Source of the DNA: a virus
Virus record (IMG/VR): IMGVR_UViG_3300035670_000114
Location: 22,867 to 86,866 of that record
Direction: 5' to 3' (one strand)
Length of the DNA: 64,000 nucleotides
Shown here: positions 47,035 to 60,794 of the stretch, in pieces
Position numbering within the stretch: the stretch's first letter is position 1
Layout: every line of letters begins with the position of its first letter
The notes under the pieces: generated by a model
Database searches by the model: none
The model's input: only the letters and a program-made list of their open reading frames with translations
What the model was told of the DNA's origin: nothing
Translations under genes and position numbers: made by a program

Positions 47035-47292
47035 ATGCAGGACTACTCCGCCCTCGACGACGCCATCTGCCGCTTCCTGGAAGCCAACGACGGCCATCCG
47101 ACCAACAACAGCGCCCTCTGCGAGATCGCTGGCAAATACGCGCCAAGCAATGTCGCCTGGCGATTGGTCGATCGCCGCATGCAAGCCATGAAGAAGTCCG
47201 GTCGGATTGCTTTTGTCGGCAGGGGGCGCAACAACCCATCCGGCCGAAGCCATGGCTGGATTGTCCGTCAACCTGGATTTACCAATGACTAG
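47035..47292 (+). CDS. Winged-helix-like hypothetical protein
   Basis: DY..LD.AI...DRRMQAMKK.G.I. Confidence 0.55.
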   Translation: MQDYSALDDAICRFLEANDGHPTNNSALCEIAGKYAPSNVAWRLVDRRMQAMKKSGRIAFVGRGRNNPSGRSHGWIVRQPGFTND

Positions 47293-47830
47293 TACGACGC
47301 GCAAGATAAAGCGCGGAGCCTCGTGGTACAACCTTGGGCTTGCCCTCTGTTCATCTTTCTGCGTATCCTCCCCCTCGTGCCGGTTCAACACGGGCACCGG
47401 CCTCCGCCTTTGTTGCTCCCCTCCTGTTCCTCCGGTCATGCCTTGGGCTCCCACCGCCGCAGGCCACTTCTGTCTTGAATGTGTCTTGGATGTGCTTCTG
47501 GGGCTCAGTCCTGTAAGACATCTGCCGTGGTGTTTCCAGTTCGACTCAACGCCGCAGGGGTTCAGTTTCTGGTGGGACATTGCAGGTGGCAGGAAAGATT
47601 TCGACTGCGCTCGCCCGATCCTGCTGCATTGGGTCAGGCAAGCCTTCATCGAGTCACGCGCCGAGCGACGAGTGTTCCGCGATCTATGTGAAGACGTCCT
47701 TCGCTATTACCACGGCGAAGCCCCTTACGACTTCAGGTCGCTCAACCCGTACGATAGAGACAACGCACGCCACGACGCCTGGTCTGATATATCTCAGCGC
47801 CTGTCGTCTGCCCTGAAGGACTTTCCGTGA
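47285..47830 (+). CDS. Hypothetical protein with TPQG..FW motif
   Basis: FQFDSTPQGFSFW; start uncertain. Confidence 0.45.
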   Translation: MTSTTRKIKRGASWYNLGLALCSSFCVSSPSCRFNTGTGLRLCCSPPVPPVMPWAPTAAGHFCLECVLDVLLGLSPVRHLPWCFQFDSTPQGFSFWWDIAGGRKDFDCARPILLHWVRQAFIESRAERRVFRDLCEDVLRYYHGEAPYDFRSLNPYDRDNARHDAWSDISQRLSSALKDFP

Positions 47831-54327: not shown

Positions 54328-54352
54328 CGGCAGCCCCGCTCCAGGGTGCTAG

Positions 54353-54396
54353 GATCACGGGTACGGGCTCAAACCCGCTCACCCGTGATCTTTTTT
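54353..54396 (+). terminator. Hairpin plus T6 abutting the next ATG
   Basis: GATCACGGGT...ACCCGTGATC followed by TTTTTT then ATG. Confidence 0.6.
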
Positions 54397-56382
54397 ATGC
54401 CTGACTTCCTGCCATTCGCCGAAGCCGTCAACCGCCGGCTCAAGGAGCTGACCGAGTTGCCGGGGCCCTCCAGGTTGCTTCGCGTCGATGCGCCGAACCT
54501 GTTCGACACCTACCTGGCGGCCTTCCCCGAGGGCACGAACCCCATCTTTCGCGAGCGCACTCACCACGACTGCAACTGCTGCAAGCAGTTCATCCGCAAC
54601 CTGGGGTGCGTGGTGGTGATTCGGGACCACCGGATTCACACCATCTGGGAGTCCCTAGGTGAGCTGCCGGAGCCCTACGGCGAGGTCGCCAGGGTGATGG
54701 ACATCGCCGTGCGGTGGAGCCCGATCTTGGGGGCCTACTACAGCAAGGAGGCCAGCTTCGGCAAGCGCAGCACCATCGAGGTGCCGCAGGATGCGACGCT
54801 GCCGACCATCACGTGGAACCACTTCTGGGGGGACGTGCCGGCGACGTCGGTTTGCTGCAACCCGGGCGAGAAGATCGGCAGGGCGGCCGACGCCTTCCAG
54901 GTACTGCGGCGGGGGCTGCAGCAGATCAAGTTGGAGCACCTCGACCTGGTGTTGGACCTGATCGACAACAACAACCTGTATCGGGGGCAGGAGCATCGGC
55001 AGGCGGTGCAGGGCTTCCGCGACCTGCTGCAGGCCTGGGTGGCGCTCGGGGGCGTCTACGAGGTCGACCTCTTTGCGTGGGAGCACGTCTTCTCGCCTCA
55101 CGCCTGCTTCCGCAACACGGTGATCGGGACCCTGCTGGTTGACCTGGCGGAGGGCCTTGAGGAGGAAATCGCCGTGCGTCGCTACGAATCCAAGGTGGCG
55201 CCCACGAACTACAAGCGGACGTCGGCCGTCATCACGCAGTCGATGGTGCAGCGGGCCGTTCAGCAGATCGAGCTACTGGGGCTCAAGGATGCTATTAACA
55301 GGCGATTTGCGCGTCCTGCGGACGTCAGCGTCAACGATGCCCTGTTTGTCGACAGAAGCATTGCCGGGGCCTTCAAGGACGGAATCACGTCCCTGCTGCA
55401 GGAGGAGGCGAAGCCGCCGAAGCTGGGGCAGCCGGAGAACATCACCATTGACGAATTCCTGGCCAAGAATCCCAAGCGGGTGGAGGTCGTACTGGAGCGC
55501 CCGCAGTTGAGCAACTTCGTCAGCCTGACGGCACCCGTGGACCCGGGTAGCGGCGTCCTGTTCCAGTGGGACAACGGCTTCGCGTGGAGCTACGACGGCG
55601 ACGTGGCGGACTCCATCAAGGAGCGGGTCGCCAAGGCTGGCGGCAACGTGGTGGACGCCAAGCTGCGGGTTTCGCTGGCGTGGAACAACTTCGACGACCT
55701 CGACATCCACTGCTTCGACCCCCGGGGGCTCCACATCTACTACGGAAACAAGCTTGACGTGCTTGACGTCGACATGAATGCCGGCCACGGCACCACCCGC
55801 GAGCCGGTCGAGAACCTCAGTTGGCGGGAGCCCGAGGATGGCGTCTACAAGATTGTGGTCAACCAGTTCTGTAAGCGGGAGAACGTCGACTTCGGCTTCC
55901 GGCTTCAGGTTGAGTCGAGCGGCGTTGTCCACGAGTTCGCCTACCCGCTGGCGGTAGCTGGGGAGGTGCCGTGCCTGCTGCTTACCGTCAGCGGTGGGCT
56001 GGTCACCGACCTGCAGGTGCTGACGCCAGCCATCGCCGGTGGCGTACTACATGGCGAGAAGTGGGGGATTCGGACCAGGTTGCCGGTGCGCGTCAACATG
56101 ATCACCCGGTCGCCCAACCACTGGGATGGTGCCGGCGGCAAGGGGAACCTGCATTGGTTCTTCTTCTTGGATGGTTGCCGCAACCCGGAGCCAACCCGGG
56201 GCATCTACAACGAATTCCTGCGCACCGACCTGCTGCCGCATCGGAAGGTGTTCGAGGTGCTTGGCGCCAAGACCAAGTGTGAGCCCACGGAGGAACAGCT
56301 TTCTGGGGTTGGCTTCTCGTCGGCCAGGGGTGATACAGTGGTCGCGGTGGCCGACCGCCGGCCGTACCGCATTCATTTCTGA
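54397..56382 (+). CDS. Large conserved phage protein with YfaP/DUF2135-like domain
   Basis: HDCNCC, VAP.NYKR, DLDIH...LDVDMN...PVEN, NEFL. Confidence 0.75.
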   Translation: MPDFLPFAEAVNRRLKELTELPGPSRLLRVDAPNLFDTYLAAFPEGTNPIFRERTHHDCNCCKQFIRNLGCVVVIRDHRIHTIWESLGELPEPYGEVARVMDIAVRWSPILGAYYSKEASFGKRSTIEVPQDATLPTITWNHFWGDVPATSVCCNPGEKIGRAADAFQVLRRGLQQIKLEHLDLVLDLIDNNNLYRGQEHRQAVQGFRDLLQAWVALGGVYEVDLFAWEHVFSPHACFRNTVIGTLLVDLAEGLEEEIAVRRYESKVAPTNYKRTSAVITQSMVQRAVQQIELLGLKDAINRRFARPADVSVNDALFVDRSIAGAFKDGITSLLQEEAKPPKLGQPENITIDEFLAKNPKRVEVVLERPQLSNFVSLTAPVDPGSGVLFQWDNGFAWSYDGDVADSIKERVAKAGGNVVDAKLRVSLAWNNFDDLDIHCFDPRGLHIYYGNKLDVLDVDMNAGHGTTREPVENLSWREPEDGVYKIVVNQFCKRENVDFGFRLQVESSGVVHEFAYPLAVAGEVPCLLLTVSGGLVTDLQVLTPAIAGGVLHGEKWGIRTRLPVRVNMITRSPNHWDGAGGKGNLHWFFFLDGCRNPEPTRGIYNEFLRTDLLPHRKVFEVLGAKTKCEPTEEQLSGVGFSSARGDTVVAVADRRPYRIHF

Positions 56383-56390
56383 GGTGCTCC

Positions 56391-56801
56391 ATGTCGCAAT
56401 CGCAAGACCTTTTCTTGGAGGCCACGCGCCTTCACCTTCGCTTTCCGTCGTCCCGTGGTGAGCTGACCACCGAAGATCTGTGGGACGTGCCCCTGCGGGC
56501 GCCGGGTCGTGACTTCAGCCTTGACTTCATCGCCAGGGAGCTGCATCAGCAACTCACCCAGGCTGGGCAGCCTTCCTTCGTGGACGACGAGAGTCCGGCG
56601 ACTGGCCGGCTTTCGCTGCAGCTTGAGGTCGTCAAGGCCGTCATTGCCGTCAAGAAGGAGGCCCAGACGGCGAAAGAGCGGCAGGCCGAGTTGGAGGCTC
56701 GTCGTCGACTGCTCAAGCAGGCCGTCAAGGCCAAGGAGGAGGAGTCGCTGACGGCGATGTCCCTGGCGCAGCTCAGGGAGGAGCTAGAGCGTCTGTCCTG
56801 A
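56391..56801 (+). CDS. Conserved partner protein (LRF..RG.LT.EDLWD.PL)
   Basis: Motif plus C-terminal coiled coil. Confidence 0.7.
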   Translation: MSQSQDLFLEATRLHLRFPSSRGELTTEDLWDVPLRAPGRDFSLDFIARELHQQLTQAGQPSFVDDESPATGRLSLQLEVVKAVIAVKKEAQTAKERQAELEARRRLLKQAVKAKEEESLTAMSLAQLREELERLS

Positions 56802-57022
56802 TGGAGCACTCGCATGCGTCAAGGCTTGCCTTTGCCAGCCTGCTTGGTTGGCCGGAGGCGGACCGCTACCCGGCGCTGCGAGGTGGGGCCTGCTGCAGGA
56901 GTGCGCACCGTGGTCGTTCGACCGCTCGCGCACTTCACTCTTCGAAGTTGGCGTATGGCTGCATAGGGTTTCGCCTCTTCGCCACGTGCTACAGTCCATG
57001 TTGTCTTTCGCAAATCGCTTCT

Positions 57023-57667
57023 ATGTCCACCACCACGCAAACCTGGGCCAAGGTTGGGCGCCAGTTGACCGTTGCGCTGCCCGACGGCGTTGAGCTCGTC
57101 CTCCTGGAGATTCCTGCCGGCGAATTCCTGATGGGTTCGCCCGACAACGAGCCGGGGCGATACGCCGACGAGGGGCCGCAGCACAAGGTCGTCATCGACA
57201 AGCCCTTCTACCTGGGCGAGACGGAGGTGACGCAACGGCAATGGCGCTCGATTGCGGCGCTGCCCAAGGTCAAGATCGACCTCAAGCCCGACCCCTCCCA
57301 CTTCAAGGGTGACGACCTGCCGGTCGAATCCATCAACTGGCACGAAAGCCAGGAGGCCGCCGCCCGTGTAGCCGCCTACACCGGCCTGGGCTTCGGCCTG
57401 CCGTCTGAGGCCAAGTGGGAGTACGCCTGTCGGGCGGGTACCACGACCCGCTACTACACGGGTGACACCATTACGAGCAACGACGCCAACTTCGACGACT
57501 CGGCCAATGGCGGGGTCTACCGAGCCAAGACCACGCCGGTTAAGACCTTCAAGCCCAACCCCTGGGGCCTGTACGACATGCACGGGAACCTGTGGGAGTG
57601 GTGTGACGACGACTGGCATCCGAACTACAACGGGGCGCCGACTGACGGCAGCTCCTGGCGCGACTGA
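57023..57667 (+). CDS. FGE-sulfatase (SUMF1/CLec-fold) domain lacking C-terminal RGGSW...GFR segment
   Basis: IPAGEFLMGS, EGPQH, VTQ.QW, LPVE, LPSEAKWEYACRAG, NPWGLYDMHGN.WEWC; frame is open back to 56801. Confidence 0.88.
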   Translation: MSTTTQTWAKVGRQLTVALPDGVELVLLEIPAGEFLMGSPDNEPGRYADEGPQHKVVIDKPFYLGETEVTQRQWRSIAALPKVKIDLKPDPSHFKGDDLPVESINWHESQEAAARVAAYTGLGFGLPSEAKWEYACRAGTTTRYYTGDTITSNDANFDDSANGGVYRAKTTPVKTFKPNPWGLYDMHGNLWEWCDDDWHPNYNGAPTDGSSWRD

Positions 57668-57807
57668 TCGGATTCGGCAGCGCCAAGCACGCCAACTGCT
57701 GCTCGGCGATTCCCGGGGCAACTCTCCCGGGGTCGCCGTTTAGTTTTGCTGAAGTGATGCGGGCCCAGTCCTGTCGCGCTTCGTGATTCCACCCCGAACT
57801 TTTCCGC

Positions 57808-58164
57808 ATGACTTCCTCTGATTCCGAGGCGTCACAGCCTCTTAACGTTGACTTCCGTCTGACCTGGGTTGCGCCGGCTGCTGGCTACAAGAAGTTGAGG
57901 CCGTTGCGTGGTGGTCCCTGGACGGATAGCCCCAGGTATTGCAGGTCGGCCCAGCGTCCTCCTCTGGGGGTCGGTAGCGCTTACAGCTTTATCGGTGTTC
58001 GCTTGGCCTGCCTTGAGCCGGCTACCGGTGAGGAGGGATGCAGATTGTTGCGCGGCGGCTCCTGGTACGACGACCCCAGGGACTGCCGCTCGGCCTATCG
58101 CGGCCACTACGAGCCCGACGACGCCATCAACGATGTCGGCTTCCGCGTGGCCTGCCTCCCCTAG
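57808..58164 (+). CDS. Protein made of two FGE C-terminal (DGR VR-like) modules
   Basis: RGGPW...CRSA...IGVRLAC and RGGSW...CRSAYR...VGFRVAC. Confidence 0.65.
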   Translation: MTSSDSEASQPLNVDFRLTWVAPAAGYKKLRPLRGGPWTDSPRYCRSAQRPPLGVGSAYSFIGVRLACLEPATGEEGCRLLRGGSWYDDPRDCRSAYRGHYEPDDAINDVGFRVACLP

Positions 58165-58219
58165 GACCTTTCTCTCGACCCTTGAGCCCTCACTCCTTTG
58201 GCCTAATCCGCTGCTTCTG

Positions 58220-58408
58220 ATGACTGATCAAACCTGGCATCACGTCGGCACCTGGCGGTGTCCTCACTGTGGGACCGAGCAGGAGGCCGTGGTTGCGCAC
58301 ACTAGGCCCGACTGGACGCCGATCGGCAACTGCTGCCGGTGCCATCGCTCGCTGGCGGGTGACCCAAGTGAAGACAGGGTCTTGACATCCGGCGATGGAC
58401 GGGGCTAG
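58220..58408 (+). CDS. Small Zn-ribbon protein
   Basis: CPHC...CCRC. Confidence 0.45.
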   Translation: MTDQTWHHVGTWRCPHCGTEQEAVVAHTRPDWTPIGNCCRCHRSLAGDPSEDRVLTSGDGRG

Positions 58409-58414
58409 GGTTGC

Positions 58415-58879
58415 GTGGTGTTTCTGGAGAATTCCATGGCGACGAGTGGCTGCATTTGGATCGACAAGCACCTTGTCAACCTGGACTCAATTGCTTTCAT
58501 ACGATCTCCTTTTGCGGTTTGCACGGGGCGATATGAGTACGTTCAGACGCCCTTTCCGCATTACGTGAACTTCTACATGAGCAGGGTCGGGTTTCAGCTT
58601 GCTGGGGTCGAGCATGGGATTTACTGTGACTCCGACTCGTATCGAGGTCCCCGGTTGACCGATCAGGCAAGGTCTACGTTCAGGAAGGCCGATCGGGAAG
58701 TGGTCGTCAACCTGCTGACCGAATGGGCCCTTGAGGAGGTGAATGCCAAAAGGCAGTCCTCAATGCTGTTCCGTCGTGTGGCGATGGAGCGCTGGGGACT
58801 GGCTTCGTCGCAGGTGCCATTCGAGGTGCCATCCGTTGAACAGGTTCTTGAGGCTAGCCTGCAGGAGGTGCTGAAGTGA
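58415..58879 (+). CDS. Hypothetical protein
   Basis: GTGA coupling to next gene. Confidence 0.5.
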   Translation: MVFLENSMATSGCIWIDKHLVNLDSIAFIRSPFAVCTGRYEYVQTPFPHYVNFYMSRVGFQLAGVEHGIYCDSDSYRGPRLTDQARSTFRKADREVVVNLLTEWALEEVNAKRQSSMLFRRVAMERWGLASSQVPFEVPSVEQVLEASLQEVLK

Positions 58880-59559
58880 GTTTTGTTTCGCGACGCGGTG
58901 CAAGCTGGTGGTCCACTGGTCCCCGTGTAGGTGGTTCTCCCCGTTGTATGGGCAATACCCCCGATACGCGTGCCTTTACCGGCCTCCGCCTCTATTGCGC
59001 CCCCTTAGCCGAAGAGCACCCCACCCCTGGTATCATCCCCCATCAGACCAATGCCCAGGGGGCCGTGGTTGGCGGCGGTTGGGCCAACCCCCTCGTCCAT
59101 TGCCGCTCGACCTCCCGTCACGGGCCACAGCAGTCATCGAAGCGCTGTACCCGGGGCTTCCGCCTCTATTGCTCCTCAATCTCCGACCAGCGCCATGACT
59201 ACGCCGACCTACTGGAGGTGGCGATCGAATGCACCCGCGCCGAGAGGGCGGTGGAGCTGGCTGACCTCAAGAAAAGGCTCGCGGCGCTTGATGCCTGCGG
59301 CGACAAGGTGAGTGCGGCGGCGTTTGGCTACCTGTTTGCTCGCAAGGAGCTGCTGCGTGGTGCGTCCTCGCTAGAGGAGGCCATGGAGTCGGAAGAGCTG
59401 AACCCCTGGAAGGCGCGGGTAATTGACGCACTAGTCGTCAACTTCTTGCTGAACGAGGAGAACGAGCGCGATCCGAAGCTGGCCTTGCGTGACATCGCCG
59501 AGTTCGAGCAACTGGTGGCCAGGGATCCCGTCTTGAATCCGAGGCCCGAAGCCGACTAG
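58876..59559 (+). CDS. Two degenerate VR-like modules fused to helical domain
   Basis: RGASW...GLRLYC; GGGW...CRS...GFRLYC. Confidence 0.6.
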   Translation: MSFVSRRGASWWSTGPRVGGSPRCMGNTPDTRAFTGLRLYCAPLAEEHPTPGIIPHQTNAQGAVVGGGWANPLVHCRSTSRHGPQQSSKRCTRGFRLYCSSISDQRHDYADLLEVAIECTRAERAVELADLKKRLAALDACGDKVSAAAFGYLFARKELLRGASSLEEAMESEELNPWKARVIDALVVNFLLNEENERDPKLALRDIAEFEQLVARDPVLNPRPEAD

Positions 59560-59594
59560 CTCCAGTAATCCCTCGTCCACTTACCTCCGATCAA

Positions 59595-60794
59595 ATGACT
59601 TCGTTTCTTGATGCGCTGAAGAAGGTCAGGCTGCCTTGGTTTTCGTCAATCGGCAACGGCAATCCTGGTCCGGTTGAGTCTACTGACCTGCAGGGGGCTT
59701 CATTTATCATGCGCGGCGGCTCCTGGATCGACTACCCCGGGGAATGCCGCTTAGCCGAACGTGCCCACGGCAGGCCTGACCTCGCTGACGACCTTGTCGG
59801 CTTTCGTCTTTTCTGCTCCCCCCTCCCTGATCGGCCCAAGATCGCGCCCCCGCCTGTAATGCGCGGCAGCTCTTGGCCTGATTTCCCCGTGGTTTGTCGC
59901 TCGGCCTACCGCGACTACGACGTACTTGACGGTGTCGACGACCTTGTCGGCCTCCGCCTCTCCTGCTCCTACCCACTTGATCGCCTGAAGAAGACAAGCC
60001 GTTCTGTTGTGCGTGGTTCCGACTGGGCTCAGGCCATTGCGAGACGCCGCTCGACTTACCGCCTCTTCAGCGGTTCCGCTAACACCAGCGACACCATCGG
60101 CCTCCGCCTCTCCTGCTCCTATCCGTCTAATCTCCCCAAGGCCGCAGTCTCCCTTGTCTCGCGTGGCAGCTCTTGGCTCAGCGCCCCCGGGCGTTGCTGT
60201 TCAGCCTTCCGCAACAACGACACATCCGACTGCGTCGACCACCTTATCGGCCTCCGCCTCTCCTGCTCCTCCCTCCCCGCTCAACCAATGGCCGCCAACT
60301 CGCCCAGCCTGTCGAATTCACCCGACAATCCGACCGCCGATTCACCTGATTCGTCGAACTTACTCAGTGAATCGTTTCTCAAGGAGGCGTCGCTGGACGA
60401 TATTTGTCATCTTGCGCAGACGCCGGTTAACTGTTTCCTCTCGGATTCCGGCAGAGCGATACTCTATTCCGCCTTCAAGTGGTCGAATTCACCACAAGGA
60501 TCGGGCTACTGGGCCAAACTGTCTACGCTTCGGCGACCCTTCACCCGGTCCGACAAGGTGATCCTGCTCGACTGGATCAAGCAAATCGAAGCCAGGGAGG
60601 CGCAGCAGGCCGCCGATACCACGCCTCAACCAAGCGCCACCACCCCACGAACACTCCAACCCACCCCAACCCCCACCCGCCAACAGGCCGCCGACGCCCT
60701 GCTTGACCTGGCGCTGGCGTGCGACCCCAAGAGTCCACAGGCTCGTGATGCGCTGCGGGTGCTGCAGGCTGTGGTGGAGTCGTTACCCAAATAA
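59595..60794 (+). CDS. Four tandem VR-like modules plus SPQG..YW domain
   Basis: 50-aa period repeats RGxSW...R...G(F/L)RL.CS. Confidence 0.7.
   Translation: MTSFLDALKKVRLPWFSSIGNGNPGPVESTDLQGASFIMRGGSWIDYPGECRLAERAHGRPDLADDLVGFRLFCSPLPDRPKIAPPPVMRGSSWPDFPVVCRSAYRDYDVLDGVDDLVGLRLSCSYPLDRLKKTSRSVVRGSDWAQAIARRRSTYRLFSGSANTSDTIGLRLSCSYPSNLPKAAVSLVSRGSSWLSAPGRCCSAFRNNDTSDCVDHLIGLRLSCSSLPAQPMAANSPSLSNSPDNPTADSPDSSNLLSESFLKEASLDDICHLAQTPVNCFLSDSGRAILYSAFKWSNSPQGSGYWAKLSTLRRPFTRSDKVILLDWIKQIEAREAQQAADTTPQPSATTPRTLQPTPTPTRQQAADALLDLALACDPKSPQARDALRVLQAVVESLPK
59709..60270 (+). repeat. 4 x 150-bp-period diverged tandem repeat
   Basis: Units start 59709, 59859, 60009, 60159; shared 3' TCGGCCTCCGCCTCTCCTGCTCC in three copies. 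Confidence 0.85.

What the first reader, a model, noticed from the sequence alone, without database searches (positions are those of the whole stretch)
56801..60270. Split FGE/CLec scaffold surrounded by a library of about nine free DGR-VR-like modules, with no RT or TR
Seen: an intact-looking FGE-sulfatase core (57023-57667) stops at GAPTDGSSWRD, exactly before the RGGSW-x3-P-x2-CRSAxR-x~11-GFR segment. That segment instead appears as separate diversified copies: about 56876, 57904, 58048, 58891, 59065, 59709, 59859, 60009 and 60159, spread over four ORFs, plus decayed copies near 57696 and 57775. Known: this segment forms the ligand-binding surface of FGE-type CLec folds and is the variable region of cyanobacterial DGR targets. 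Inference: a two-part binding system in which one scaffold is completed in trans by interchangeable specificity modules. Alternatively, the modules are a cassette reservoir for recombination, or decoys that poison host FGE-domain sensors. I know of no described system with this architecture.
Basis: partly seen in the sequence, partly recalled or inferred. Interest (0 to 1): 0.88.

Follow-up and report, generated by a model that had tools for sequence, protein, structure and literature searches.

The report
Split phage lectin, free tip modules
A cyanophage encodes a lectin-fold binding protein without its last, ligand-contacting piece and encodes about eight to ten versions of that piece separately; the same layout recurs in unrelated phages, so it is probably a working two-part binding system, although binding between the parts is untested.

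Summary
ORF 57023-57667 is an FGE-type C-type-lectin core that stops just before the RGGSW..CRSAxR..GFR segment. That segment recurs as seven robust copies, one marginal copy and two motif-only copies; one of these, at 47312, is new. The complete 86.9-kb phage has no reverse transcriptase and no template repeat.

This is neither a private accident nor an assembly error.
- The stop is reproduced in other runs.
- In a strain from another study, 8 of 9 core differences are synonymous.
- A 61%-identical protein starts and stops at the same places.
- At least 11 other IMG/VR loci hold tandem or duplicated modules. About eight of them pair a core that lacks its C-terminal module with modules in front of it or in separate ORFs. 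In one, the cistrons are chained by a ribosome-binding site and overlapping start and stop codons.
- Of the best 150 database hits, 71 are proteins made only of 2-5 modules.

Module M3 keeps a DGR target-type 3' flank. It is 80-83% identical to template repeats of picocyanobacterial DGRs.

Best reading (confidence 0.4): tip modules dock into the tip-less core. New tips would arise by recombination and perhaps by host DGR acting in trans.

This scan noted the same architecture earlier on other phage DNA (e1-6004433, e1-6004428, e1-5321439). I found no paper that describes it.

The parts
56873..56983 (+). M1, a degenerate module upstream of the core start. It lacks the SW..P loop. It is probably a relic of an N-terminal module like those of the m-CORE genes of other phages.
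   Evidence: HMM 12.6 bits, E 0.011. GC by codon position is flat at 0.57/0.65/0.64, against 0.60/0.48/0.87 in the core. Orthologous m-CORE genes align from residue 21-26 onward.
56987..56995 (+). Promoter-like motif TGCTACAGT, ending 28 nt before ATG 57023.
   Evidence: TGCTANNNT occurs 30 times in the window against 13.5 expected, and 0 of 100 shuffles reach 30. No further copy lies before 62582, so 57023-60794 may be one transcription unit (inference).
57023..57667 (+). FGE-type C-type-lectin core without its C-terminal variable segment (214 aa, protein P0163).
   Evidence: Pfam PF03781 positions 6-208 of 255. GC3 is 0.87. 8 of 9 differences in strain X4 are synonymous and the stop is unchanged. 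P0165 is 61% identical with the same start and end.
57696..57870 (+). Two decayed module remnants between the core and the 118-aa ORF. One is frame-shifted at the canonical distance after the core. The other carries an in-frame stop.
   Evidence: Read from the three-frame translation and the DNA. Both are below the HMM threshold, so this is a weak call.
57808..58164 (+). Module-only ORF (118 aa as called, P0053) holding M2 (57901-58011) and M3 (58045-58155). It belongs to a widespread family of two-module mini-proteins.
   Evidence: HMM 41.2 and 70.6 bits. It is 34-51% identical to 94-103-aa two-module proteins that start and end at the same places. In strain X4, M2 changes are mostly synonymous or conservative.
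58156..58203 (+). DGR target-type 3' flank of M3 (IMH-like, ..CTCCCC TAGGACC..).
   Evidence: Up to 79% identical to the 3' flanks of 103 host variable repeats (median 65%). It reads AGGACC as in host VR flanks (CAGGACC), not the TR form CAGCACC. Flanks of the other window modules score a median of 17-44%.
58223..58879 (+). Two small genes packed inside the cluster: a zinc-ribbon-like ORF at 58223-58408 and an ORF at 58415/58436-58879. The second one's stop overlaps the GTG start of the next gene (GTGA).
   Evidence: ORF list. Weak CPxC-type Pfam hits only, and no PHROG hit.
58876..59559 (+). 227-aa ORF: M4 (about 58894-59000, motif only) and M5 (59065-59172) fused to a helical C-terminal domain of unknown family.
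   Evidence: M5 scores 24.2 bits. GC3 is 0.67 in the module part and 0.80 in the C-terminal part. No Pfam or PHROG match. In strain X4 a contig skips 58891-58984.
59595..60794 (+). 399-aa ORF: a 35-aa leader, four modules M6-M9 at an exact 150-bp period, then a C-terminal domain with the motif F.W..SPQG..YW.
   Evidence: HMM 53.2, 41.9, 17.6 and 30.9 bits. P0001 is 70% identical and has two chimeric modules. In strain X4 exactly one 150-bp unit (60096-60245) is missing, in frame, at a 25-nt stretch that fits both sides of the joint.
47207..47830 (+). Distant paralogue: one degenerate module (M0, RGASW at 47312 to GLRLCC at 47399) fused to the same SPQG..W C-terminal domain.
   Evidence: Motif scan and ORF translation. 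Alignment with the 399-aa ORF. Below the HMM threshold.

Best explanation
This is a phage early-region cassette that encodes an FGE-type C-type-lectin binding protein in two parts.

One gene makes the scaffold (214 aa). It lacks the last ~45 residues, which in intact proteins close the fold and carry the ligand-contacting, hypervariable positions. Neighbouring genes make that 'tip' segment separately. It occurs as a two-module mini-protein (M2-M3) and as 1-4 modules fused to the N-termini of other small domains.

Most likely a tip docks non-covalently into the tip-less scaffold (fragment complementation). One scaffold would then serve several specificities. Multi-module proteins would recruit several scaffolds, or tether their C-terminal domains to them.

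New tips arise by unequal recombination between modules. M3 still has a DGR target site, so it is probably also rewritten by the DGR of the cyanobacterial host acting in trans.

Shown: the parts, their conservation, their linkage and their variability. Inferred: docking, the role, and the use of a host DGR.
For: (1) The two parts are complementary in profile space: PF03781 positions 6-208 and 210-254.

(2) The tip-less core is maintained.
- 8 of 9 strain differences are synonymous and the stop is intact.
- Core GC3 is 0.87.
- The 61% orthologue P0165 has the same start and the same stop.
- In L086 versus L087 the core has dN 0.044 and dS 0.154.

(3) Linkage recurs.
- A scan for tandem modules (FRVVC..RGGSW) found 8 IMG/VR contigs of 52-88 kb. 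Seven hold a core with no C-terminal module, with modules in front of it or in separate ORFs.
- In L092 a 189-aa core-only gene ends ..WEAKS*. GGAGG and an overlapping GTGA start lead into module-only cistrons, and each of the next two ends with the same junction.
- The terminases of these phages are unrelated.

(4) Module-only proteins are a real family. They make up 71 of the best 150 representatives in 1.84 billion proteins. They start a median of 7 aa before the first module and end a median of 8 aa after the last.

(5) Free modules keep the same framework as modules inside whole domains. Information content per position correlates at r = 0.95, and R, G, G, W, C, R, S, A, R, G, F, R are 73-100% conserved.

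(6) The tips are the fast-evolving part.
- L086 versus L087: variable positions have dN 0.87 (26 of 32 residues differ), framework positions dN 0.042.
- Strain X4: 39 differences in 337 nt over M2-M3, against 12 in 809 nt over the core.
- Module number changes: 4 in the window, 3 in X4, 2 in P0001.

(7) M3 looks like a DGR target.
- It is 80-83% identical in DNA to template repeats next to Avd/RT genes in Synechococcus, Cyanobium and Microcystis genomes.
- It has a VR-type 3' flank.
- Six variable codons differ between strains, with changes at the first two codon positions in all six; five keep a third-position C in both strains and the sixth goes TAT to TTC.
- The phage has a tyrosine recombinase, so a lysogenic phase is possible.

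(8) In this phage and in five others the neighbours are replication, recombination or nucleotide-metabolism genes, with a lysis gene and a minor-tail match 4-6 kb away in two loci; none is a tail-fibre gene.
Against: - No structural or binding evidence exists. The core ORF folded alone and the two-module protein folded with a 39-sequence alignment both gave low confidence (pLDDT 33 and 46).
- Some phages place modules N-terminal to the core in one polypeptide (m-CORE), which may complete the fold in cis and leave no open site.
- Two module-bearing genes are far from the core or carry degenerate modules (M0, M4).
- The conservation comparison is partly circular, because the modules were collected by similarity to the motif.
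- The DGR signature on M3 is not clean. Only 11 of 22 mismatches to the closest host TR are at TR adenines. Three synonymous framework changes accompany the variable-codon changes. Simple recombination with another VR explains these as well.
- The L086/L087 module differences include third codon positions.
Confidence: 0.4

Rival explanations
1. Anti-sensor decoys. Free tips and the tip-less core swap into the host's own DGR-diversified FGE-domain conflict-system proteins. Tips would displace the host variable segment, and the phage core would capture it. This would blind host sensors early in infection.
For: - The likely hosts (Cyanobium, Synechococcus, Microcystis) carry many large proteins that end in CORE-m, next to Avd, RT and TR.
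- Published work proposes such FGS/CLec domains as invader sensors (PMC7159879; PMC10907252).
- The phage module framework is close to that of host repeats (80-83% in DNA for M3).
- The cassette lies among early and DNA-metabolism genes in six phages.
- Variable positions evolve at roughly neutral dN/dS within their own codons (0.87/1.21), as expected if only the framework matters.
Against: - Free tips alone would suffice, yet a tip-less core is adjacent in every evaluable phage locus and is translationally coupled in L092.
- No host protein with an open site is known.
- Fusion of modules to other domains is not explained.
- Nothing was tested.
Confidence: 0.2
2. The modules act on their own as a repeat or adaptor domain. 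They would be independent of any core, for instance as a short binding or oligomerising unit that was co-opted from the lectin tail.
For: - Modules are fused to unrelated C-terminal domains (ORFs at 47207, 58876 and 59595; also P0012, P0026, P0047).
- One such gene lies 9 kb from the core.
Against: - The framework residues kept are exactly those of the embedded segment.
- There is no confident autonomous fold (weak evidence).
- A tip-less core sits next to the arrays wherever context could be read.
Confidence: 0.15
3. A cassette reservoir for recombination. Silent modules would donate sequence to one expressed module, as in pilin or VlsE antigenic variation.
For: - Recombination between modules is real. 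There is a 150-bp in-frame loss at a 25-nt stretch that fits both sides of the joint in strain X4, chimeric modules in P0001, and 2, 3 or 4 modules within one 90%-identity cluster (P0007).
- L084 and L090 differ in the modules beside the core but not in the downstream arrays.
Against: - The variable module beside the core in L084/L090 is at most 59% identical to any array module, so no recent donation is visible.
- Array modules lie in ORFs with their own ribosome-binding sites and start codons.
- Window modules share only 60-72% DNA identity, apart from a 25-nt 3' block.
Confidence: 0.1
4. A relic. A host DGR target gene was captured, broken by a stop and a frameshift, and its 3' end was amplified by slippage. 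Nothing here is functional.
For: - Decayed copies lie between the core and M2.
- M1, M0 and M4 are degenerate.
- GC3 of the module parts (0.64-0.74) is lower than in typical genes of this phage (about 0.83).
Against: - The core is under purifying selection.
- The same truncation occurs in a 61% orthologue and in unrelated phages.
- Cistrons are translationally coupled.
- 71 module-only clusters have conserved starts and ends.
- The 399-aa ORF has a 70%-identical orthologue.
Confidence: 0.1

Closest known systems
DGR variable proteins with the FGE-type C-type-lectin fold (Treponema denticola TvpA, PDB 2Y3C; cyanobacterial FGS-domain targets of Kaur et al. 2020, PMC7159879)
   Same: Same domain family (PF03781). 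The same ~40-residue C-terminal variable segment with an RGGSW..CRSAxR..GFR framework and hypervariable positions in between. Canonical homologues of the core match PvdO, FGE and TvpA chains.
   Different: Here the scaffold and the variable segment lie on separate genes. The segment is multiplied 8-10 times and fused to other domains. The genome has no RT, Avd or TR.
Bordetella phage BPP-1 Mtd and its DGR
   Same: A phage uses a C-type-lectin variable tip to vary binding specificity.
   Different: Mtd is an intact tail-fibre protein diversified by the phage's own RT and TR. Here there is no RT. The genes sit mostly among replication, recombination and nucleotide-metabolism genes rather than tail-fibre genes. 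The diversity is stored as a hard-wired set of tips.
Remote DGR targets of cyanobacteria (Vallota-Eastman et al. 2020, PMC7517822)
   Same: M3 has a variable repeat plus a target-type 3' flank at the 3' end of a gene, with no RT nearby. It resembles TRs of cyanobacterial DGRs.
   Different: The remote targets described are whole CLec genes in the same genome as the DGR. M3 sits on a phage, in a mini-gene with no lectin core.
Cassette-based antigenic variation (pilE/pilS, vlsE)
   Same: Arrays of diverged copies of one variable segment with conserved flanks, and copy-number change by recombination.
   Different: The copies here are in translated ORFs with their own starts. No expression-site conversion was seen.
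Earlier notes of this scan on other phages (e1-6004433, e1-6004428, e1-5321439)
   Same: A truncated FGE/CLec scaffold plus arrays of 4-12 mini-genes that encode only the variable tail. Those notes also report DGR-like marks without an RT.
   Different: In this window the modules are mostly joined in multi-module ORFs and fused to other domains. One module carries a recognisable DGR target flank. These are AI notes, not independent evidence.

Membership tests
FGE-sulfatase / FGE-type C-type-lectin domain (PF03781) | Profile match above the curated cut-off | tested here: met
   Core 136.6 bits, 118-aa ORF 37.1 bits, cut-off 23.3.
FGE-sulfatase / FGE-type C-type-lectin domain (PF03781) | Whole domain (profile positions ~1-255) in one polypeptide | tested here: not met
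   The core covers positions 6-208 and stops. Positions 210-254 are found only in separate ORFs.
Catalytic formylglycine-generating enzyme | Paired active-site cysteines and copper site in the C-terminal segment | not tested
   No residue-level alignment to FGE was made. The modules show one conserved Cys in CRSA and one after GFRVV.
Diversity-generating retroelement (DGR) | DGR-type reverse transcriptase in the element or genome | tested here: not met
   No RVT_1 in the 86.9-kb phage, nor in five other phages that carry the cassette.
Diversity-generating retroelement (DGR) | Template repeat: a near-identical, adenine-rich copy of the variable repeat | tested here: not met
   Modules are 60-72% identical to each other. 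None is AAC-rich.
Diversity-generating retroelement (DGR) | Variable repeat at the 3' end of a gene, with a target-type (IMH-like) flank | tested here: met
   This holds for M3 only. Its flank is up to 79% identical to host VR flanks and reads AGGACC as in host VR flanks, not the TR form CAGCACC.
Diversity-generating retroelement (DGR) | Differences confined to template adenines | tested here: inconclusive
   11 of 22 mismatches to the closest host TR are at adenines, which make up 21% of its bases. The strain differences in M3 hit six codons at the AAC-type positions, five of them NNC in both strains, but three synonymous framework changes accompany them.
Module-only mini-proteins (undescribed family found here) | Two or more tandem modules, no core, and an ORF that starts and ends within about 10 residues of the modules | tested here: met
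   M2-M3 aligns at 34-51% identity with 94-103-aa members. The ORF as called has a 30-residue leader that includes a decayed module.
m-CORE genes (module in front of a core that lacks its C-terminal module) | An N-terminal module translated in one polypeptide with the core | tested here: inconclusive
   ORF 56801-57667 is open, and homologous genes in the other phage loci align from residue 21-26. Against this, M1 is marginal (12.6 bits), lacks a coding GC3 signal, and a promoter-like motif lies between it and ATG 57023.

The most novel reading that the evidence does not exclude
The phage outsources hypermutation. The mini-gene tip M3 would be rewritten by the host's DGR in trans while the phage is resident. 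The diversified tip would then plug into the phage's tip-less scaffold. Useful tips would be copied into the fixed array (M2, M5-M9) by recombination. The result would be a retroelement-free, germline-stored repertoire of binding tips built on one scaffold.
Probability: 0.15. Interest if true: 0.9.

Novelty: new variant of a known kind. Interest (0 to 1): 0.72.

Why it matters
C-type-lectin variable proteins are the best-studied natural scaffold for massive binding diversity. They have always been described as one polypeptide tied to a retroelement.

A scaffold and tip encoded separately would be a new way for a small genome to hold many specificities. Nine tips cost about 450 codons here, against more than 2,000 for nine whole domains.

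It would also be a natural fragment-complementation system that protein engineers could copy.

A phage-borne DGR target without an RT, matching host template repeats, would make it directly testable whether host DGRs edit phage genes.

If the tips instead jam host DGR-diversified sensors, this would be a counter-defence against a proposed bacterial 'adaptive' sensing system.

Tried and rejected
- Structure of the 288-aa ORF without an alignment: pLDDT 33, useless.
- Structure of M2-M3 with a 39-sequence alignment: pLDDT 46, no confident fold. No fold search was run on these models.
The neighbours of most metagenomic module-only proteins therefore remain unknown.
- Close relatives of this phage were not found:
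  - GenBank phages hold only a short FGE match to Microcystis phage LMM01.
  - IMG/VR searches with the 399-aa ORF and with the 678-aa neighbour found nothing.
  - The one metagenome scan found only distant carriers of the SPQG..W domain.
- The search for related loci with a two-module alignment failed for lack of conserved stretches.
- Pairwise dN/dS among the window's own modules is saturated and uninformative (dS 0.4 to above 2, ratio 0.25-1.6).
- Cassette donation into the module beside the core was not seen in L084/L090.
- A pure adenine-mutagenesis pattern was not seen in L086/L087: differences fall on all three codon positions.
- The L084/L090 contrast (arrays identical, upstream modules replaced) is better explained by a recombination breakpoint than by targeted diversification.
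- No RNA holder was listed among public runs.
- The ESM Atlas gave only ~50-aa FGE-fragment clusters.
- Literature searches found no description of tip-only genes or split CLec targets. The library does not hold subscription journals.

Full report
**What the window is.** The window is bases 22867-86866 of an 86,866-bp IMG/VR virus record that CheckV rates as complete. It encodes a large terminase, a portal protein, ribonucleotide reductase, a primase, a helicase and an endolysin. It also encodes a tyrosine recombinase. It has no close relative in GenBank phages or in IMG/VR. GC is about 60%. The closest cellular homologues of its FGE-like gene are in freshwater picocyanobacteria (Cyanobium, Synechococcus, Prochlorococcaceae) and in Microcystis. 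A cyanobacterial host is therefore likely, though this is an inference.

**The observation.**
- ORF 56801-57667 matches Pfam FGE-sulfatase over profile positions 6-208 of 255 and then stops (GAPTDGSSWRD, TGA). The 118-aa ORF 57808-58164 matches positions 210-254.
- I built a profile of the ~37-residue module from database copies and scanned all six frames of the whole phage. It gives seven clear hits of 17.6-70.6 bits (M2, M3, M5-M9) and one marginal hit (M1, 12.6 bits). All lie on the + strand between 56.8 and 60.3 kb. Nothing elsewhere exceeds 9.4 bits.
- Two further copies are recognisable only by motif: M4 at 58894, and a new one, M0, at 47312.
- The modules share 60-72% DNA identity and none is AAC-rich. 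None is therefore a template repeat. No reverse transcriptase is present.

**Not an error and not private to this genome.**
- Contigs from other runs of the same study are identical across the stop codon.
- A strain from a different study (X4) covers 56980-57788 without an indel and has 12 differences there. Nine of them lie in the core, and eight of those nine are synonymous.
- P0165 is 61% identical to the core. It begins at the homologous Met and ends at GAPTDGSAWIE-stop.
- Several other proteins end within a few residues of the same point.

**A recurrent cassette.**
- I searched the four-module stretch against 1.84 billion representative proteins. This gave 233 hits. Of the best 150, 71 are proteins made only of 2-5 tandem modules, 6 have modules in front of a core that lacks its C-terminal module, and 59 are canonical.
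- The module-only proteins start a median of 7 residues before the first module and stop a median of 8 residues after the last.
- A DNA pattern specific for tandem modules found eight IMG/VR contigs of 52-88 kb. Seven show a core without a C-terminal module. In three of these the modules sit N-terminal to the core. In the other four one module sits N-terminal to the core and the rest lie in separate flanking ORFs.
- L092 is the clearest case. A 189-aa core-only gene ends WEWCLNDWEAKS-stop. The stop overlaps a GTG start that is preceded by GGAGG. The next two module cistrons (of four) end with the same WEAKS-stop junction.
- In L090 the linker LPREVTP-stop likewise encodes GGGAGG plus an overlapping ATGA.
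- None of five such phage genomes has an RT. Their terminases are unrelated to this phage's, except for one at 34% identity.
- Where neighbours could be named, most are replication, recombination or nucleotide-metabolism genes. An endolysin and a minor-tail match lie 4-6 kb away in two loci. Here the cluster sits between a phrog_1735/phrog_2018 pair and an exonuclease.
- In 79 cellular loci the normal CORE-module order dominates. The isolated modules there are template repeats next to Avd and RT genes.

**What is expressed here.**
- A promoter-like TGCTACAGT lies 28 nt before ATG 57023. The motif class is enriched in the window, with 30 copies against 13.5 expected.
- The M1 region lacks the third-position GC excess of this phage's genes.
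- The gene caller's product (P0163) and the orthologue P0165 both start at this Met.
- I therefore take the product to be a 214-aa core without any tip, and M1 to be a relic of the N-terminal module seen in other phages. The homologous genes of those phages do align from residue 21-26, so this point stays open.
- Downstream genes are tightly packed, with a GTGA overlap at 58876.

**How the parts evolve.**
- The core is under purifying selection (dN/dS 0.28 in L086 versus L087; 8 of 9 synonymous differences here).
- Between L086 and L087, the canonical variable positions of the two modules differ at 26 of 32 residues (dN 0.87). Framework positions have dN 0.042.
- In strain X4 the M2-M3 contig has 39 differences in 337 nt, against 12 in 809 nt over the core. 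M2 changes are mostly synonymous or conservative.
- Module number changes by recombination:
  - X4 lacks exactly one 150-bp unit, in frame, at a 25-nt stretch that fits both sides of the joint.
  - P0001 (70% identical) has two chimeric modules.
  - One 90%-identity cluster holds members with 2, 3 or 4 modules.
- Across 184 free modules and 103 canonical modules, the per-position conservation profile is the same (r = 0.95). There is some circularity in how the modules were collected.

**M3 and the DGR link.**
- M3 (58046-58172) is 80-83% identical to template repeats in picocyanobacterial and Microcystis loci. These repeats lie beside bAvd-like and RT genes.
- Its 48-nt 3' flank is up to 79% identical to host variable-repeat flanks and reads AGGACC as in the VR form CAGGACC, not the TR form CAGCACC. 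The flanks of all other window modules are unrelated.
- Its variable codons sit exactly where host TRs have AAC.
- Between the window and strain X4, six of these codons differ, with changes at the first two codon positions in all six. Five keep a third-position C in both strains and the sixth goes from TAT to TTC.
- The signature is not clean. Only half of the mismatches to the closest TR are at adenines, and three synonymous framework changes accompany the strain differences. Whole-repeat replacement from a different TR and plain recombination both fit.
- Cyanobacterial DGRs are known to serve many remote targets (PMC7517822). A phage-borne one on a core-less mini-gene is not described there.

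**Mechanism.**
- The best-supported reading is fragment complementation. A tip docks into the tip-less scaffold, which gives several specificities, or tethered domains, from one scaffold. Tips would be renewed by recombination and possibly by host DGR action on M3.
- This rests on complementarity, conserved truncation, physical and translational linkage, and a conserved framework.
- It has no structural or biochemical support.
- Four rivals remain:
  - decoys against host FGE-domain sensors;
  - an autonomous repeat function;
  - a recombination reservoir;
  - a relic.
- The relic reading is the weakest, given purifying selection and recurrence in unrelated phages.

**Novelty.** I found no paper describing tip-only genes or split CLec proteins. 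Earlier notes of this scan report the same architecture in other phages. This window adds multi-module fusion proteins, strain-level evidence, and a module with an intact DGR target flank.

Noticed in passing
window 60300-60794 and 47207-47830; L003:932-2419; L002:293-532: A small domain with the motif F.(W/F)..(S/T)PQG..(Y/F)W. It ends the 399-aa ORF, recurs in ORF 47207-47830, forms the N-terminus of an AAA-type ATPase-like ORF in a metagenome contig, and stands alone as a 79-aa ORF in another. It has only a faint match to phrog_16354 and no Pfam match.
   Followed up: partly
L004:6586-7650; L093:7195-8256; proteins P0225, P0272: Genes in which one or two extra copies of the module are read out of frame. 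They give an Ala/Pro/Ser/Thr-rich linker (..CAAGRGTTAPGAAAR..) between the core and the final in-frame module. This suggests tandem duplication of the variable repeat followed by a frameshift.
   Followed up: no
L090:680-1000; L085:1160-1460; many module-only proteins (P0015, P0018, P0020, P0022): The linker LP(R/Q/G)EV(A/T)PPRM between tandem modules encodes GGGAGG followed by ATG just before each module. In split versions the same sequence is the stop/start junction. Internal initiation at every module is conceivable.
   Followed up: partly
window, 30 sites, e.g. 54347, 56987, 62582: TGCTANNNT is over-represented (30 copies against 13.5 expected) and often lies 25-45 nt before start codons. 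The proposed late motif GGHANNMTA is not significantly enriched (23 against 17.4).
   Followed up: partly
window 54346-56801: A 678-aa protein (phrog_1735, E 7e-200) and a 136-aa protein (phrog_2018) form a pair. The larger one has homologues in more than 500 phages of many hosts. Its function is unknown. The stop of the small gene overlaps ATG 56801.
   Followed up: no
window 57389 (G>A): The single non-synonymous core difference in strain X4 (Gly to Asp) is also present in the database representative P0163. It is therefore a circulating polymorphism.
   Followed up: no
L013:8845-10338: In a Synechococcus MAG the bAvd-like match and the end of the RT fall in two adjacent ORFs between a variable repeat and its template repeat. 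The RT may be frameshifted in this assembly.
   Followed up: no
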